This document shows positions 4,620 to 15,851 of a stretch of 39,055 nt of DNA, piece by piece. The position numbers were made by a program, and so were the translations under genes. The DNA comes from a virus. Taxonomy: Duplodnaviria > Caudoviricetes. The stretch lies in the IMG/VR virus record IMGVR_UViG_3300017700_000484, positions 1-39,055 of that record; one strand, 5' to 3'. How positions within the stretch are numbered: position 1 is the first letter of the stretch; each line of letters opens with the position of its first letter. The notes below the pieces were generated by a model. It saw only the letters and a list, made by a program, of their open reading frames with translations. It was not told the DNA's origin and ran no database searches.

Positions 4620-5050
4620 TGCGACTTCCTGCCTATTGGCGATTTATACCACGCTTCCGGCGTGAGAATCCATCTTTTACACGCAACCCCGAACACTGTG
4701 TCCTCGAATACACCATCTTCGCGGAAACCGTAAGAGGCGGGCGGCTTTGACCGCCAGTTATCAGCCCACTCATGCGCGATGACCGTAACGCCCTCGCTCA
4801 TTTTCTTGCCAAAGATGTCTCTAAACGACGCGGCTAACTTACGCCCCCAATAGCCCGGAAGGAACGCAACGTGTATTTCCTGGCCGTCTGGTTTGTCCAT
4901 GAACACAAACCCACCGCCTGGGTATTGGTATTCGTGCACATCGTCACGCTCAAGCCAGTCAAGGAAGTCCTCTACAGTCCCGACGCCACGCAATACGAAT
5001 GGCTCCACGTCTGGATGCGTCAGGACGGGGTGCCAATGCTCTCTGGTCAT
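4616..5050 (-). CDS. GNAT-like protein (P22 gp14 position)
   Basis: EIHVAFLPGYWGR resembles acetyltransferase motif A; lies between the tail and ejection genes. Confidence 0.55.
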   Translation of the reverse strand: MTREHWHPVLTHPDVEPFVLRGVGTVEDFLDWLERDDVHEYQYPGGGFVFMDKPDGQEIHVAFLPGYWGRKLAASFRDIFGKKMSEGVTVIAHEWADNWRSKPPASYGFREDGVFEDTVFGVACKRWILTPEAWYKSPIGRKSQ

Positions 5051-5697
5051 ACTGTCCTGCGAGCATACAGGCGGGCTGGTACGTCAGTAATCTGCCACAC
5101 CGGATTGTCTAACTTGAAGTCCAGGCGGTAGCTAATCGCGCCCGTTGATGTTCGGGCATCAAGGAAGGCGTTTATATCAGCCGGATTGTTGCAGAATACG
5201 GTGTTGAAAAGCGTGTCCTTGACGGACGTAAACGCCCACGGCCCGCCGATGACTGTGTCGCCGCCGTCTATCTCGACAAGTCGAACCTCTCCAGAGAGGG
5301 GCGTAAGGTTCTGGTCCGTGCCCGCGTCCGCAAACAGCCCCGACCCAGGAATAGACACGTCGCCAGCAACAACGCCCGCCAGATCGACCTGTGGCCCAGG
5401 CTGCCAGGTGTCACCGATGATGTCCATCGTAAGCGTCTCAGAACCGGCGTTACCGCCGGTCAGGCCGATTGCGATGTTGGCTAGCTGTAGCGCCTCAACG
5501 ATCTGTTCCTGCTGTGCCTCTATCACCAACTGCTGCGCGGTCAGCATAGCGATTGTCTCAGCCTGTGCAGCCTCTTGCGCTTCGATCTTTGGCGCAAACT
5601 GGTTGTTGAAGAAGTCCAGAAACGTTGTCGTCGGCCTGCCCTGGTTATCGACTATGGCCAGCCGAGACTGGAGGCGAGGCAAGCGGAACGCGGGCAT
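5047..5697 (-). CDS. Tail-associated virion protein (gp26/tail needle position)
   Basis: N-terminal IVDNQGRPTTTFLDFF motif, then a coiled coil and a beta-rich C-terminus; directly follows the gp10-like gene. Confidence 0.5.
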   Translation of the reverse strand: MPAFRLPRLQSRLAIVDNQGRPTTTFLDFFNNQFAPKIEAQEAAQAETIAMLTAQQLVIEAQQEQIVEALQLANIAIGLTGGNAGSETLTMDIIGDTWQPGPQVDLAGVVAGDVSIPGSGLFADAGTDQNLTPLSGEVRLVEIDGGDTVIGGPWAFTSVKDTLFNTVFCNNPADINAFLDARTSTGAISYRLDFKLDNPVWQITDVPARLYARRTV

Positions 5698-11449: not shown

Positions 11450-12580
11450 TTACGCGTTAGCGACAGCGGCAGTGAAGATCGAGTAGCTGCCGTACTGGAC
11501 ACCTTGGAACGAAGTCTTCTTGATGCCGATCAGTTCTTCGATGGCACGCGCAGGGCGGAACTCATAGTCCTGCGAGTTGTCGGTGATCAGGCGCGGACGC
11601 TGACCCCATGCGACGGCGATAGCCGACTGACCCACCAGCGTGGCTTGGGCCACGTCGATGCCGCCCGCACCGGCACCGGCGATGATCGGAAGGTCAGCGA
11701 CCTCCTTGATGATCATGCCGTTCCACAGCAGGTCGCCGTTACGGAACAGAGGGTTGTTCTTGCCCCGCTCCATAGCGTCACGGTTGGCCTGGAACATCGT
11801 GGCGTCCCGGCGCAGGTCACGCATCTGGCGACGGTTGACGAACACCACGTACCACTCTTCGCCGTCTTCCGTCATATACGGGTTGATGGCGGGACCGGTC
11901 GAAGCGATGTCGGCAGTCTCGGCAGCGCGAGCGCGTGCGGTGTCGAGAACGGCGGTGGACATCTTGTCGTCGGTGTTGTCCAGAGTCGCCAGAGCCGTAG
12001 CCATGACGTTGGACGAACCGTTCGACACCAAGGCACCGAACTGCACGCGGTCAGCGTTGTTCACCAGGAAGGTGTTGCGCTGGGCGGCAGAGGCGTCCTC
12101 GTAACGCAGAACAGTGTCAGCGTTGGCGAAGCCCTCGGCGTTGGCAGCGCCGGGAATGACGATGCCGTTCAGGTTGTTGATGATGCCGGTCTTGAGTACG
12201 ATGCGAGCGGCCCAGTCACGAAGCGACGGACCAGCCACGCGCAGGATGTCCATGTTCGTCTTGTAGCTGGACGACTTCGGCACCTTGATGGCGTTACGAC
12301 GCCAGTTGGTGGTGACCTTGTCCACGAACTGCTCAAGATCGACCTCGTTACCTTCGAGGACTTGCGAGCCGGAAACGCCCGCGTTCTTGACGGTGCCCAG
12401 CAGCGGGACGATGATGTCCTTGCCGCCATCGGTCTTGGACTCGTTGAAGACACGAATAACCGCGTCGGAACCTTCGCCCATATACCGGTCAAAGCCGGAC
12501 TGACGGATGTAGGGTTTGTAATAATCGTTAATGAGCCACTTCGTCTCATTAAGATTCGAGTTGATGATTACCTCGGCCAT
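11450..12580 (-). CDS. Major capsid protein (HK97 fold, DUF4043-like)
   Basis: 376 aa, strongly biased codons; GG.DI.VPL..GVSGSQVLEGNE and NPLFRNG motifs; follows the scaffold gene. Confidence 0.85.
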   Translation of the reverse strand: MAEVIINSNLNETKWLINDYYKPYIRQSGFDRYMGEGSDAVIRVFNESKTDGGKDIIVPLLGTVKNAGVSGSQVLEGNEVDLEQFVDKVTTNWRRNAIKVPKSSSYKTNMDILRVAGPSLRDWAARIVLKTGIINNLNGIVIPGAANAEGFANADTVLRYEDASAAQRNTFLVNNADRVQFGALVSNGSSNVMATALATLDNTDDKMSTAVLDTARARAAETADIASTGPAINPYMTEDGEEWYVVFVNRRQMRDLRRDATMFQANRDAMERGKNNPLFRNGDLLWNGMIIKEVADLPIIAGAGAGGIDVAQATLVGQSAIAVAWGQRPRLITDNSQDYEFRPARAIEELIGIKKTSFQGVQYGSYSIFTAAVANA

Positions 12581-13362
12581 GCCTTTTTATCCAATGCAAA
12601 TGAGACATCATCCCATCCTGCATTGGCCGTCTGCTTAGACCCTGTCGAGGGAACATTAGCGAGACTGCGTGGCGGGGTGGGCTGAGACGGTTTCAAAGAA
12701 GAGGGTTGCCCCTCGGGTGAAACAATCCAGCCCTGGCTCTTGGCGTATTCTTCGGCCCGTTCCTTGACCAGATCGTCAAGGTCTCGGCCTCCTAGCGCCT
12801 CAAGGGTCTGTGACCGCTTGTATTCTGCGACAACGAAATCGGCGGGCCACTGAGCCTTGCCGATCTGACTGTCAAACGCGGGGTCAGTCGCTGCACGCTG
12901 GATCGCCCATTGGGTCGCCGCGTCAACAGTCTCTTGCCCGTGCTTCTCTAACGCACGTTCCCGCGAAAGGTCCGCCCTGATCTGAAACGCTTCCTGCTGG
13001 ATGCGGCTCTCGAAAAAGGCGTTCACCCCCTCGGGGTCTTCGTAAGCGTCAAGTCGCGGCTTGGGTGCTTGCGGCACCTTCTGCTGTGCTTCCTGATACC
13101 GACGCTCCATCTCTTGCGCCTTCGCCTCGGCCTCCTGGCGTTTGCGGCGCTCCTCCTTCATCTCACGATAGAGAGTCGGGTTGAAATTCTCCGCTTGTTC
13201 TTCTGCCTCGTTAGCTGGCGCTTCCGGGTCTGCGGGTGCGTCTTCGGTCGGAACTTCAGGCGCTTCTACAGTCTCGGCAACTTCAGCCTGGGCCACTTCG
13301 TCTGTCTGGACACCTTCGTCCTCCAGCCACGCGTCGCCCATAGTATCGGCAAAATCAGCCAT
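12568..13362 (-). CDS. Scaffolding protein
   Basis: Acidic N-terminus, EERRKRQEAE coiled coil, C-terminal PPRSLANVPS; lies between portal and capsid. Confidence 0.75.
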   Translation of the reverse strand: MADFADTMGDAWLEDEGVQTDEVAQAEVAETVEAPEVPTEDAPADPEAPANEAEEQAENFNPTLYREMKEERRKRQEAEAKAQEMERRYQEAQQKVPQAPKPRLDAYEDPEGVNAFFESRIQQEAFQIRADLSRERALEKHGQETVDAATQWAIQRAATDPAFDSQIGKAQWPADFVVAEYKRSQTLEALGGRDLDDLVKERAEEYAKSQGWIVSPEGQPSSLKPSQPTPPRSLANVPSTGSKQTANAGWDDVSFALDKKAWPR

Positions 13363-13373
13363 TCGTCACTCCC

Positions 13374-13432
13374 TGCCCGATCATCGGCGGCATCCCTTCT
13401 TTGCACATGGTCATCGGCTGTGCGTCCTCGGC
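13374..13432 (-). promoter_or_regulatory. Tandem 5'-UTR hairpins sharing a GCCGATGA loop
   Basis: tcatcggc at 13381-13388 and 13411-13418, each inside a short stem; the proximal hairpin abuts the GGGAG SD. Confidence 0.55.
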
Positions 13433-13435
13433 AGT

Positions 13436-13464
13436 ATTGTAAACGCGGTTGCTGATTAGCGCAA
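13436..13464 (-). promoter_or_regulatory. Sigma70-type promoter for scaffold/capsid
   Basis: TTGCGC-17 nt-TACAAT on the minus strand. Confidence 0.6.
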
Positions 13465-13482
13465 TACCTGTAGGCGCACAGC

Positions 13483-13514
13483 AAAACGCCCCCACTCGGT
13501 TAAGAGTGAGGGCG
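13483..13514 (-). terminator. Rho-independent terminator
   Basis: CGCCCTCACTC-TTAACC-GAGTGGGGGCG-TTTT on the minus strand. Confidence 0.7.
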
Positions 13515-13546
13515 AATGCGCGAGGCCGGAATCAATACCGGAAGAT

Positions 13547-13632
13547 GCAAAAAGACTGGACTCGAACCAGCGCGCTCCAGGTAGAGTGATAATCTATGCC
13601 TGGCGCTCTAAACCAACTGAGCTACCTTTTGC
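13547..13632 (-). tRNA. Atypical tRNA-like element with an elongated anticodon arm (apparent anticodon AUC)
   Basis: Acceptor (G)CAAAAGG/CTTTTTG(C); D-arm GCTC-AGTTGGTTTA-GAGC; T-arm GCTGG-TTCGAGT-CCAGT; anticodon arm CCAGG-CA-TAGA-TTATCAC-TCTA-CCTGG; no encoded CCA. Confidence 0.75.
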
Positions 13633-13683
13633 CTCAAGCTTTACACTCATAGCCGCGAACCAAGAGCCGCCGCTCGCCCAAAA

Positions 13684-13712
13684 ATCTTAAATCTTTGGCG
13701 CCAATCAGTCAA
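13684..13712 (-). promoter_or_regulatory. Sigma70 promoter of the tRNA-like RNA
   Basis: TTGACT-17 nt-TAAGAT on the minus strand. Confidence 0.7.
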
Positions 13713-13714
13713 CG

Positions 13715-13942
13715 CTAGTCAAACCATGTAGCTGCATCTCGCAGATTGATCGCAGCCTCTTCTCTGGCCTTGGCTCTGTTTCGGGCTGACTCGGCTTCAG
13801 CCTCAAGGCATCCGGCCTCTTCGTTAAGTCTGGCGGCCTCTCTTTCGTACCCCTCTGCCTTTTCAATCAAGACGCCCTTGGGGGTGTGTTTTTCTTTTTG
13901 TGGCGATTCTTCAAGCAGTACAACCGGCGCTTCCATACTCAT
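13715..13942 (-). CDS. Hypothetical coiled-coil protein
   Basis: AAGGAGAG SD; Glu/Ala heptads. Confidence 0.6.
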   Translation of the reverse strand: MSMEAPVVLLEESPQKEKHTPKGVLIEKAEGYEREAARLNEEAGCLEAEAESARNRAKAREEAAINLRDAATWFD

Positions 13943-13949
13943 CTCTCCT

Positions 13950-15851
13950 TTAGCCCATCAACCCCATATCCCGCGCCTGCATATCCGCAGCCTTGACGAC
14001 TACATCCGCCTCGGCCTGGTTAGCCTTGGCGACGTTGAGGGCGGTCTTGGATTCGGTCTCGGCAATGTCAGCCTGTGCGGCGCGCATGCCCAGCTCGGTC
14101 TGCATCTGCTGCATCTGCTGCTGCATCTGCGCCATCTGCTGCGCCTGCGGATCGTCGCCGCCCTGCGACTCCTTGATGATGTCCTTGACCTCTTGCTTGT
14201 CGGGCATCGACGACAGGGCCAGAGCCACGTTGAACGCGACCTCTGGACCGAACGCCTGTTGCAGGCCCGGGAACATCGGGGCCATCGCCTCAAACTGTTC
14301 GGCTTGCAGGTTCGCCGTGTCAGGCACGGTCTGCACTTCGATGTCGATATCCCAATCCGCCAGCTTGTTCGTGATCTTCATCTGCTGCGTGGACGGATCA
14401 ACCACCGGCTGTCCGGTCTGCGGATCGACCTCAGGCGCGTTAAGTTGCACGAAGTCGGCCTTGCCCTCCATACCCGTCACGCGAATGAACTTAGGCTCCT
14501 GCCAGAACTGACGCGCACGCATCCAGCATTGGTGATAGATCGACGTCTCGAAGTCCTCCAGACGACCAAGGCAACGCGCAATCTCCGTCATGCCCGCCTG
14601 TTGCAGCACCAGCCGCGACCGGCCCGACTGCGACGAAGCAGAGGCATCGGCCAGCACAGCAGGCGTGGGGGCCTGCCTGACCAGCGCCTGTCGTGCGTCC
14701 TGCATCATAGCCGAAGCGCCTGCCGTCAGGTCAGACGTGGGCACAATGCTGTATCCCGTAGGCAGCAGACCGTCTGCGCGTGCCGCCTCTTTGCGGGCCG
14801 TGTCAGCGTCCACGTCAGGCGGGAGGTTCGGGTCCGTGACCTGTAGTTGGCGGGAGTTCGTCAGATGCAGCAGACGCGAGGCATAGGCGTTAAGTTCGTC
14901 CTGCTGGCTCAGCATGGACGCGACCAAGCCGTAGCGCTCGTTTTCGCGGTTCACGTTGCACGACGACGCCACGATGGGGTTGCAGGGGTTCTGGTAGTCG
15001 TCCAGATACGGGCTAGGCGTCTGGTCCAGCACGCCCGCCGCATAGAACACCGTCCGCATCCACTCGTCTTCGCGGTGGTACATCTCGACCACGAAGATAC
15101 GGCGCTTCTTGGTATCAGCCCAGCACTCGGCCAGGTTATCGGGCCGGTCCTGCATTGTCGTCAGGCTCATGTCGCCCCAGTTGGACGAATAGACCAGCGG
15201 CAGGTCTTGCGCGAACATCGGATACAGCTTGGCCAGGTCATCCTCTGCCAGCCACTTGCCGATGCCCATGTATCGCGCGTCTGAGAAGTCCGCCTCACGC
15301 GAGCGCGGGTCGTAAATCAGTTCCTCATACCGGATGCGGTTGATCAGGATGTTCTCGCCGTCGCACTCGACCACGGCACCCGTAGCGCCTTCGATCAGGT
15401 AGTTCTCGGCACAGTCGATCTTCTTCTTGTGCAGGCGGTTCTGGTCCCCGATGTAACGCAGGGTCTTGGACGCCACATCAGCAGCGTCCTCATCGGTGGG
15501 GTTGCGTGGATAGGCGCGGGGATCAACCTTGGCCTGGGTCAGGATGCCCAGCACGCCGTTGATCGCGGGCTTGATCTCATTGCGGATGATCTGGGGCTGA
15601 CGGGCACGACGCAGGGCGGCGAGCTTCTTCGTGTCAAGCTGCTTGTCGTCGAAATAGTCGCGGCACATCTCGGCGCGCTGGCGAGCCACATCAGTGCCGT
15701 CGCGGAAGTCATCGACCATGCGGCGCATGGGCTTGACGTCGATACTGGCGAGGCGGGCGCGTTCGGCCTCCAGTGCAGCAGCTTCTGCCTCGGCCTGCAT
15801 AAGCGCCATGTCCTCTGGCGACATGTATTCGGCCATCATCGTGTCAGTCAT
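13950..15851 (-). CDS. Portal protein (P22-like, with C-terminal barrel)
   Basis: 633 aa; DYFDDKQ..RNEIKPAINGVLG, YDPRSREADFSDARY, RYGLV..QDELN; Gln-rich coiled-coil C-terminus. Confidence 0.9.
   Translation of the reverse strand: MTDTMMAEYMSPEDMALMQAEAEAAALEAERARLASIDVKPMRRMVDDFRDGTDVARQRAEMCRDYFDDKQLDTKKLAALRRARQPQIIRNEIKPAINGVLGILTQAKVDPRAYPRNPTDEDAADVASKTLRYIGDQNRLHKKKIDCAENYLIEGATGAVVECDGENILINRIRYEELIYDPRSREADFSDARYMGIGKWLAEDDLAKLYPMFAQDLPLVYSSNWGDMSLTTMQDRPDNLAECWADTKKRRIFVVEMYHREDEWMRTVFYAAGVLDQTPSPYLDDYQNPCNPIVASSCNVNRENERYGLVASMLSQQDELNAYASRLLHLTNSRQLQVTDPNLPPDVDADTARKEAARADGLLPTGYSIVPTSDLTAGASAMMQDARQALVRQAPTPAVLADASASSQSGRSRLVLQQAGMTEIARCLGRLEDFETSIYHQCWMRARQFWQEPKFIRVTGMEGKADFVQLNAPEVDPQTGQPVVDPSTQQMKITNKLADWDIDIEVQTVPDTANLQAEQFEAMAPMFPGLQQAFGPEVAFNVALALSSMPDKQEVKDIIKESQGGDDPQAQQMAQMQQQMQQMQTELGMRAAQADIAETESKTALNVAKANQAEADVVVKAADMQARDMGLMG

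What the first reader, a model, noticed from the sequence alone, without database searches (positions are those of the whole stretch)
13483..13712. tRNA mimic with an elongated anticodon arm in its own transcription unit
Seen: canonical D-arm, 5-nt variable loop and TTCGAGT T-loop. The anticodon arm is 5 bp + CA bulge + 4 extra perfect bp, capped by a 7-nt loop UUAUCAC that keeps U33 and purine 37 (apparent anticodon AUC). The acceptor can form 8 bp (extra G:C, as in tRNA-His or tRNA-Sec) and no CCA is encoded. It sits in a ~195-nt transcript with a near-consensus promoter, a ~45-nt leader, a trailer hairpin and a terminator, between the portal and scaffold genes. Known: bacterial A34 anticodons are essentially limited to Arg-ACG. 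Inference: the extra bases are paired, which suggests selection rather than decay, and the longer arm should not decode normally. It could be a decoy for anticodon nucleases or tRNA-targeting defences, a synthetase or ribosome ligand, or a tRNA scaffold displaying a guide loop.
Basis: partly seen in the sequence, partly recalled or inferred. Interest (0 to 1): 0.78.

Follow-up and report, generated by a model that had tools for sequence, protein, structure and literature searches.

The report
Phage histidine-tRNA mimic without working anticodon
This phage carries an inserted gene for a histidine-tRNA look-alike whose codon-reading arm is ten bases too long, so it likely cannot read codons and likely serves as bait for host enzymes that attack tRNAs; look-alikes with the same histidine-type end recur in unrelated phages.

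Summary
The element is real and was read correctly. It is an 86-nt tRNA body (13547-13632, minus strand; Rfam tRNA 47 bits, missed by ARAGORN) in a 506-bp cassette that near-identical phages lack.

Its core comes from alphaproteobacterial tRNA-His (10 of 12 anticodon-blind matches are His). It keeps G-1:C73, the HisRS identity pair, but has lost GUG, and its acceptor is fully re-sequenced yet paired 7/7.

No direct homologue was found, and the extra 4-bp helix alone is not beyond chance (14% of shuffles).

It belongs to a wider class of phage tRNA bodies with a long hairpin in place of the anticodon arm. Among those with G-1, 18 of 28 have C73, against 0 of 20 intron-type controls. Their arms fold better than shuffles and their loops are not conserved, so the 'AUC anticodon' is probably not the working part.

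Best reading: a non-decoding tRNA-His mimic acting as a decoy through its acceptor and elbow (function inferred, 0.45). Main rival: a recently broken tRNA-His gene.

Precedents: T5 RNA1/RNA2 and Mukai's G-1 tRNA1. This scan noted His-ended mimics before on other DNA; I found no paper describing them.

The parts
13448..13953 (-). 506-bp accessory cassette (moron) between portal and scaffold genes
   Evidence: Contigs in runs X2 and X3 join 13447 to 13954 with 9 other letters between; two contigs in X10 skip 513-515 bases; closest IMG/VR relative L002 lacks it. GC 52.8% against 60.0% for the genome.
13715..13942 (-). Orphan 75-aa ORF inside the cassette, upstream of the RNA; role unknown
   Evidence: Purine-rich stretch before ATG; no PHROG or Pfam hit, only itself in the protein search, no usable Atlas hit, one weak unrelated viral hit.
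13684..13712 (-). Sigma-70-type promoter candidate of the RNA (-35 13712-13707, -10 13689-13684), overlapped by an imperfect inverted repeat at 13675-13700
   Evidence: 9 of 12 matches, 1 found against 0.4 expected. Inverted repeat read from the sequence. Activity untested.
13633..13677 (-). Predicted 5' leader of about 45 nt
   Evidence: Inferred from the -10 position; start site not measured.
13547..13632 (-). 86-nt tRNA-His-derived body: G-1 (13632), 7-bp acceptor, D arm 13622-13605, variable loop 13576-13572, T arm 13571-13555, C73 (13547); no encoded CCA
   Evidence: Rfam RF00005 47 bits; coordinates and pairs; His ancestry.
13577..13603 (-). Extended anticodon arm: outer 5 bp, 2-nt bulge (13598-13597), inner 4 bp, 7-nt loop (13592-13586); no GUG
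   Evidence: Pair probabilities 0.8-1.0 for 8 of 9 pairs; outer stem and G26 identical to tRNA-His of L536, L537, L540.
13526..13541 (-). 4-bp trailer hairpin
13479..13514 (-). Intrinsic terminator candidate: 11 pairs plus T-rich tail
13436..13464 (-). Promoter candidate for the scaffold/capsid genes; its -10 lies outside the cassette and its -35 (13464-13459) is supplied by the cassette
   Evidence: In the insert-less form a -35-like hexamer in the portal end lies 17 nt from the same -10 (read from the joint and from L002). Not picked up by the scan; inferred.

Best explanation
The phage carries, as an inserted cassette, a gene for a tRNA-His-derived RNA that keeps the acceptor, D arm, T arm and the G-1:C73 histidine identity pair but has a 10-nt-longer anticodon arm without GUG, so it likely cannot decode and likely acts as a decoy for host enzymes that grip tRNAs by the acceptor end and elbow. 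Steps: (1) transcription from its own promoter to the terminator gives about 195 nt (inferred from consensus sites). (2) RNase P would cut before G-1, as for tRNA-His, the trailer would be trimmed and CCA added by the host (inferred from established tRNA processing). (3) The L-shape would form, as the tertiary bases are intact (bases shown, fold predicted). (4) A HisRS of the G-1:C73 type would charge it; in a Caulobacter-type host, whose HisRS wants A73 and the anticodon, it would stay uncharged (both from PMC9976931; host order not determined). (5) The long arm would keep it out of decoding, and the loop lacks the G34-U35 that GUN-cutting nucleases use, so a stable tRNA-shaped RNA would compete for tRNA-inactivating defence enzymes that read the CCA end, acceptor and T arm (inferred; no target identified).
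For: His ancestry: a pattern taken from the element alone, blind to the loop and the acceptor, gave 12 matches in 151 alphaproteobacterial genomes; 10 are tRNA-His(GUG), including all 4 with at most 2 mismatches. Against tRNA-His of L536, 6 of 7 acceptor pairs and 1 of 5 T-stem pairs differ, and all still pair. Class: a generic pattern hits about 810 stretches in IMG/VR by estimate. Of 109 distinct sequences, 38 (window included) have a 5-bp stem enclosing a longer non-anticodon insert, 34 of them with at least 6 acceptor pairs. G-1:C73 enrichment: in a scan that demanded G-1 but not C73, 18 of 28 extended-arm viral hits with intact acceptor have C73, against 0 of 20 intron-type hits, 6 of 32 extended-arm hits without G-1 (P 5e-4, not corrected for kinship), and 0 of 20 canonical non-His tRNAs with G-1. 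It is not general 8-bp pairing: A-1 pairs in 2 of 11 and C-1 in 1 of 13 (hand count). Arms of 21 G-1:C73 members fold better than shuffles of their insert (combined P 4e-5; 43 intron-type controls P 0.81). Two three-member families keep acceptor, D and T arms while the arm sequence drifts. Precedent: G-1 tRNA1 species were charged by E. coli HisRS but not used in translation (PMC5389517); G-1:C73 minihelices are charged (PMC9976931); Cas12a3 binds T arm, acceptor and CCA and does not need the loops (PMC12851939). This phage group invests in tRNA repair and supply: 3 of 17 closer relatives carry canonical tRNAs, and G010 has RtcB next to them. The same junction holds a different tRNA-like RNA in L009 and L010.
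Against: No direct homologue in IMG/VR or in JGI metagenomes (only the window's own contig), so selection on this copy's arm is unproven; its own arm is not better than shuffles (P 0.18-0.21). The compensatory acceptor changes could predate the insertion, from a time when it was a working phage tRNA-His. None of 14 close relatives displayed has it, so it is dispensable. No shared partner gene among 24 viral G-1:C73 loci (108 of 143 nearby ORFs scanned). No target enzyme identified. In the genome-contig scan the enrichment is weaker (7 of 21; that set includes archaeal intron tRNAs and gap artefacts). The host looks alphaproteobacterial and the best phage SSB hit is a Caulobacter phage (72%), where HisRS would not read G-1:C73. 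Only 1 of 21 class members encodes CCA after C73, so CCA addition is assumed.
Confidence: 0.45

Rival explanations
1. A recently broken phage tRNA-His gene: a working tRNA-His moron took a 10-nt insertion and is now passive cargo.
For: Seen once only; absent from near-identical phages; inner helix at chance level; relatives do carry working tRNAs with divergent acceptors; the inner hairpin resembles a His anticodon stem-loop (9 of 12 positions outside the anticodon, a score other isotypes also reach).
Against: No GUG is left in the 17-nt insert, so more than one event is needed, yet no stem has a mismatch; no working tRNA with this acceptor was found (1 hit, unrelated); the class shows G-1:C73 enrichment and folding beyond shuffles; working tRNAs of relatives encode CCA (6 of 6), this one does not.
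Confidence: 0.22
2. A charged, non-decoding His-RNA that acts on the host's translation housekeeping (ties up HisRS or EF-Tu, damps or mimics starvation signals, or donates histidine to a non-ribosomal transferase) rather than on a defence enzyme.
For: The specific conservation of G-1:C73 points to HisRS; charged-but-unused tRNA1 precedent.
Against: No transferase or synthetase gene in the window's scanned ORFs or shared by class loci; benefit to a phage unclear; may not be charged in a Caulobacter-type host.
Confidence: 0.15
3. A tRNA scaffold that displays a codon-like loop (AUC) to pair with the anticodon loop of host tRNA-Ile(GAU) or tRNA-His, or that baits anticodon nucleases with an Asp/His-like loop.
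For: The loop is complementary over 6 nt to a tRNA-Ile loop and over 5 nt to one tRNA-His loop, the best of 82 distinct loops; the 7-nt U33/purine-37 geometry is rare in shuffles (0.16%, post hoc); Cas13b6 cuts isolated His stem-loops (PMC13692257).
Against: Any U33/A37 loop is complementary to the loop with the opposite anticodon at those places, so most of the match is built in; class loops vary from 3 to 11 nt and only this copy has such a loop (1 of 21); the loop lacks G34-U35.
Confidence: 0.08
4. A processing or insulation signal in the late transcript: RNase P cleavage plus the terminator uncouple portal from scaffold and capsid expression.
For: Sits exactly in the portal-scaffold junction; the cassette brings a terminator and restores the -35 of the downstream promoter.
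Against: Has its own promoter; near-identical phages do without it; other relatives put unrelated cargo here; class members lie in many different gene contexts.
Confidence: 0.06
5. An intron-containing tRNA that is spliced to a working tRNA, or a tRNA that decodes with A34.
For: Introns in phage tRNAs have been reported (10.1101/356790); 22 of 109 class-search hits look like intron tRNAs; a relative encodes RtcB.
Against: 0 of 15 distinct single-block 10-nt removals give a 5-bp stem with U33 and purine 37, and none gives GUG; no bulge-helix-bulge layout by inspection; no ligase or splicing nuclease among the window's scanned ORFs.
Confidence: 0.03

Closest known systems
Bacterial tRNA-His(GUG) of the G-1:C73 type (alphaproteobacterial examples L536, L537, L540; identity rules in PMC9976931)
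   Same: G-1, C73, D arm, G26, identical outer anticodon stem, G49-U65 wobble, T loop.
   Different: No GUG, 17 nt instead of 7 inside the stem, acceptor re-sequenced, no encoded CCA.
Phage T5 tRNA-like stable RNAs RNA1 and RNA2 (NC_005859 annotation: 'tRNA-like stable RNA with unknown functions')
   Same: Phage RNA with acceptor, D and T arms and a long hairpin in place of the anticodon arm; no CCA at the annotated end.
   Different: 125-144 nt, extra variable arm, lie in a tRNA array, no G-1:C73 end apparent in the fold; the window's RNA is a lone 86-nt body in a podovirus moron.
G-1 tRNA1 irregular tRNAs (Mukai et al., PMC5389517)
   Same: G-1-bearing irregular tRNA, charged by HisRS in vitro but not used in translation; suspected link to toxin-antitoxin systems.
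   Different: They have GGU anticodons with a nearby GUG, some an 8/4 branch, and lie in polycistrons ascribed to acidobacteria; an extended anticodon arm is not described in the parts read.
Phage tRNAs that evade PARIS and retron nucleases (PMC11555353, PMC12409363; search listings and abstract starts only)
   Same: Phage tRNA-shaped RNA proposed to counter tRNA-targeting defence.
   Different: Those are working tRNAs that replace the cut host tRNA; this one cannot do that.
Intron-containing tRNAs of Lak megaphages (10.1101/356790) and of archaea, eukaryotes and giant viruses
   Same: tRNA gene with extra bases in the anticodon arm.
   Different: No removal restores a canonical loop here.

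Membership tests
Canonical tRNA-His | G-1:C73 pair | tested here: met
   G13632 and C13547.
Canonical tRNA-His | GUG anticodon in a 7-nt loop on a 5-bp stem | tested here: not met
   17 nt inside the stem, no GUG; ARAGORN 0 genes.
Canonical tRNA-His | 7/5 acceptor-T branch, D arm and tertiary bases | tested here: met
Canonical tRNA-His | Charged with histidine by HisRS | not testable with these tools
   Inferred from PMC9976931; depends on host order.
Intron-containing tRNA | Removal of one block restores a canonical anticodon loop | tested here: not met
   0 of 15 removals.
tRNA-Sec | UCA anticodon and long variable arm | tested here: not met
   5-nt variable loop, no UCA anticodon; Rfam's best clan hit is RF00005.
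allo-tRNA (Mukai) | 8/4 or 9/3 acceptor-T branch | tested here: not met
   7 (+1) acceptor pairs with a 5-bp T stem.
Other Rfam families (tmRNA, Y RNA and the rest) | Covariance-model match | tested here: not met
   Only tRNA listed at E up to 5 in 12500-14500; one lower-scoring same-clan overlap was left out by the tool.
T5-type tRNA-like stable RNAs | tRNA body with the anticodon arm replaced by a long hairpin | tested here: met
   Layout compared; no sequence match to T5 in the phage blastn.
T5-type tRNA-like stable RNAs | Accumulates as a stable RNA in infection | not testable with these tools
   No RNA run holds the stretch.
Extended-arm G-1:C73 phage tRNA mimics (class defined here) | Intact acceptor, D and T arms, G-1:C73, longer non-anticodon arm, usually no CCA | tested here: met
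Extended-arm G-1:C73 phage tRNA mimics (class defined here) | Covariation in this copy's own arm | tested here: inconclusive
   No homologue to align.

The most novel reading that the evidence does not exclude
Phages widely encode a dedicated class of non-decoding, histidine-ended tRNA decoys, an RNA-only counter-defence against immunity enzymes that attack the tRNA acceptor end or elbow. This podovirus picked one up as a swappable cassette, at a junction where relatives carry a second, unrelated tRNA-like RNA.
Probability: 0.3. Interest if true: 0.82.

Novelty: new variant of a known kind. Interest (0 to 1): 0.55.

Why it matters
tRNAs are a main target of bacterial immunity. The phage answers I found in the papers searched are working replacement tRNAs and repair enzymes. 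A tRNA-shaped RNA that gives up decoding but keeps one synthetase's identity pair would be a third route. It would also give a testable handle on the T5 'stable RNAs of unknown function'. Gene finders miss these RNAs or list them as undetermined, so the class is undercounted. The G-1:C73 enrichment makes a sharp prediction (charging by HisRS, lost on changing either base) that one acid gel can test.

Tried and rejected
Direct homologues: four patterns. One search gave 16 hits, all normal-length tRNAs. One search gave 19 hits, none homologous (tmRNA-like ends and other odd tRNAs). One search gave 8 hits, one being the window's own contig. One search gave 1 unrelated hit. Blastn against phage records gave only 24-26-base T-arm matches.

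Expression: no RNA holder listed; this is no evidence either way. Of 8 runs laid, only X1 covers the element; small-share runs were not used to name a habitat.

Host: no prophage relative in genome contigs; capsid homologues carry no organism names; RtcB and endolysin searches were uninformative.

(11 of 12 His in 301 genomes) used a pattern relaxed to admit one His tRNA. It is biased and was replaced. The isotype means inherit that bias.

A third small family (L109, L130, L142, L148; not G-1:C73) showed no two-sided change. A loop-inversion origin (positions 34-38 read as the reverse complement of one His loop) was considered and set aside as post hoc. The 75-aa ORF gave no family. No structure or complex prediction was run.

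Literature: ten searches found no description of His-ended extended-arm phage RNAs. The library lacks most subscription papers, including older T5 work, and no supplements were read; those of PMC5389517 could hold similar structures.

Full report
Setting. The window is a whole 39-kb virus record of a podovirus-like phage: terminase, portal, scaffold-position ORF, major head, head closure and DNA ejection genes run on the minus strand. Its capsid protein has 16 relatives at 77-92% in IMG/VR and none above 33% among named phages. The SSB is closest to Caulobacter phage Sansa (72%) and scores 167-186 bits in four alphaproteobacterial genomes against 125 in one gammaproteobacterial genome. The host is probably an alphaproteobacterium; its order is unknown.

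Observation. A re-assembly of run X1, possibly the source, is identical at depth 70.9, so the long arm is real DNA. Two cautions. The extra 4-bp helix arises in 13.6% of shuffles, and the arm is no more stable than 20.6% of shuffles. The promoter match is 9 of 12.

It is a recent cassette. Near-identical phages in X2 and X3 join 13447 to 13954, X10 shows the same gap, and L002 has no insert. The 506 bases hold an orphan 75-aa ORF, the promoter, the RNA and the terminator. They split a likely scaffold promoter and bring a new -35 at the right spacing (inferred). The junction is a cargo site. Of 14 close relatives displayed, three carry a 113-128-aa ORF, one a 77-aa ORF, four a short promoter-terminator unit, and two (L009, L010) a different tRNA-like RNA with a T arm and long hairpin that has no Rfam match; some carry more than one of these. 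None carries this element.

It derives from tRNA-His. A pattern copied from the element's D-stem end, outer anticodon stem and T arm, blind to loop and acceptor, matched 12 places in 151 alphaproteobacterial genomes at up to 3 mismatches: 10 tRNA-His(GUG), 1 Pro, 1 Arg, and all 4 with at most 2 mismatches are His. All 13 alphaproteobacterial tRNA-His retrieved are of the G-1:C73 type. Independently, the element has G-1 and C73. Against L536, 6 of 7 acceptor pairs and 1 T-stem pair differ, yet all pair. GUG is gone, and no single 10-nt removal gives a canonical loop (0 of 15), which rules out a simple intron.

No direct homologue, but a class. Four targeted patterns found no homologue. A generic pattern for a class I D arm and T arm with 6-18 extra bases between them hits about 810 stretches in IMG/VR, estimated from 10 of 64 parts. 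My script sorted 109 distinct sequences (window included) into 38 extended-arm, 22 intron-like, 11 long-variable-arm and 38 other; the sorting is heuristic. All 6 extended-arm members with G-1 had C73. I then ran a scan that required G-1 but left position 73 free. Of 62 distinct viral sequences, 55 had at least 6 acceptor pairs and were counted: C73 occurs in 18 of 28 extended-arm, 6 of 7 other and 0 of 20 intron-like. Canonical non-His tRNAs with G-1 show 0 of 20. Extended-arm elements without G-1 show 6 of 32 (P 5e-4). Kinship is not corrected for, but most acceptors are unrelated. In genome contigs the figure is 7 of 21, in a set mixed with archaeal intron tRNAs and gap artefacts. The inserts of 21 G-1:C73 members fold better than their shuffles (combined P 4e-5, only 4 of 21 individually at 0.05, the window at 0.18), and 43 intron-like controls do not (P 0.81). 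Apical loops run from 3 to 11 nt, and only the window has a 7-nt U33/purine-37 loop. In two three-member families the 8-bp acceptor and D arm are nearly invariant and the T stem covaries, while the arm changes sequence (3 and 5 two-sided changes overall; small samples). No partner gene is shared by 24 viral loci (108 of 143 ORFs scanned).

Mechanism. What the class keeps is the acceptor end and elbow; what it drops is the anticodon. G-1:C73 is enough for HisRS to charge minihelices, and Caulobacter-type HisRS instead uses A73 and the anticodon (PMC9976931, passages). Irregular G-1 tRNAs were charged by HisRS but not used in translation (PMC5389517, passages and part 3 of 5 of the main text). 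At least one defence nuclease, Cas12a3, binds T arm, acceptor and CCA and tolerates loss of the loops (PMC12851939, passages). Cas13b6 excises GU from His and Asp anticodons (PMC13692257, abstract and passages), a dinucleotide this loop lacks. Among 26 related records searched, 4 carry canonical tRNAs, 3 of them among the 17 closer relatives. G010 has RtcB directly upstream (417 aa, PF01139); G003 shows similar DNA there but was not scanned. I therefore favour a processed, non-decoding tRNA-His mimic that titrates host enzymes reading the acceptor and elbow, most likely tRNA-inactivating defences (0.45). Shown: sequence, ancestry, cassette, class statistics. Inferred: expression, processing, charging, target, benefit. 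The main rival is a recently broken tRNA-His gene (0.22), because this copy is unique and its paired acceptor may be inherited from a working ancestor.

Comparison and novelty. It works like a tRNA mimic but is not a member of canonical tRNA-His, intron tRNAs, tRNA-Sec or allo-tRNAs (Membership tests). The T5 record annotates RNA1 and RNA2 as tRNA-like stable RNAs of unknown function, and they fold with long arms in the anticodon position, so the kind is known. Phage tRNA introns are reported in 10.1101/356790 (passages), and tRNA fragments from mobile elements in PMC9897764 (passages). Ten searches found no paper on the His-ended extended-arm form; subscription papers and supplements were not seen. 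Earlier notes of this scan describe His-ended mimics in other phages; I reached the His reading before seeing them and took the T5 lead from one. Verdict: new variant of a known kind, interest 0.55.

Noticed in passing
L009 about 1210-1310 and L010 about 5045-5145: A second, different tRNA-like RNA at the same portal-scaffold junction: short acceptor-like stem, small D-like hairpin, long interrupted arm, 6-bp T arm with one compensatory change; no Rfam match.
   Followed up: partly
L001, L006, L009, L014, just after the portal stop: Promoter-like site, about 60-nt RNA with a pyrimidine-rich anti-Shine-Dalgarno-like start, and a terminator; in L006 that start is complementary over 11 nt to the end of the 77-aa ORF upstream (read). 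Possible small RNA family.
   Followed up: no
window 13365-13425 and the matching leader in L001-L026: A GC-rich hairpin motif, usually twice, before the scaffold start codon, kept even in phages with 28-35% capsid identity; candidate site for translational control of scaffold.
   Followed up: no
L271 (G010) 1420-2902 and L272 (G003) 200-545: RtcB RNA ligase gene directly followed by tRNA-Pro(UGG) and tRNA-Gln(UUG) in roughly 40-kb relatives; G002 has tRNA-Asn(GUU) near the small terminase.
   Followed up: partly
L163, L165, L167-L170, L174, L176, L177: A very short RNA with tmRNA-like 5' and 3' ends joined by a small hairpin, recurring in nine viral contigs.
   Followed up: no
L183, L184, L187, L189, L190: tRNA arrays with A34 (AAU) tRNA-Ile calls, 9-nt inserts and several four-base-anticodon calls.
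   Followed up: no
L050, L052, L058, L065, L095, L108, L144, L154: Phage tRNAs for Gly, Asn and Val with canonical anticodon arms but long variable arms.
   Followed up: no
L109 232-337; L345 1233-2828: A drum RNA lies near one extended-arm element; a 531-aa RNA-binding protein (phrog_850; Ro60-like by recall) lies next to another.
   Followed up: no
window 13675-13700: Imperfect inverted repeat across the -10 box of the RNA's promoter, found once in the genome; possible operator.
   Followed up: partly
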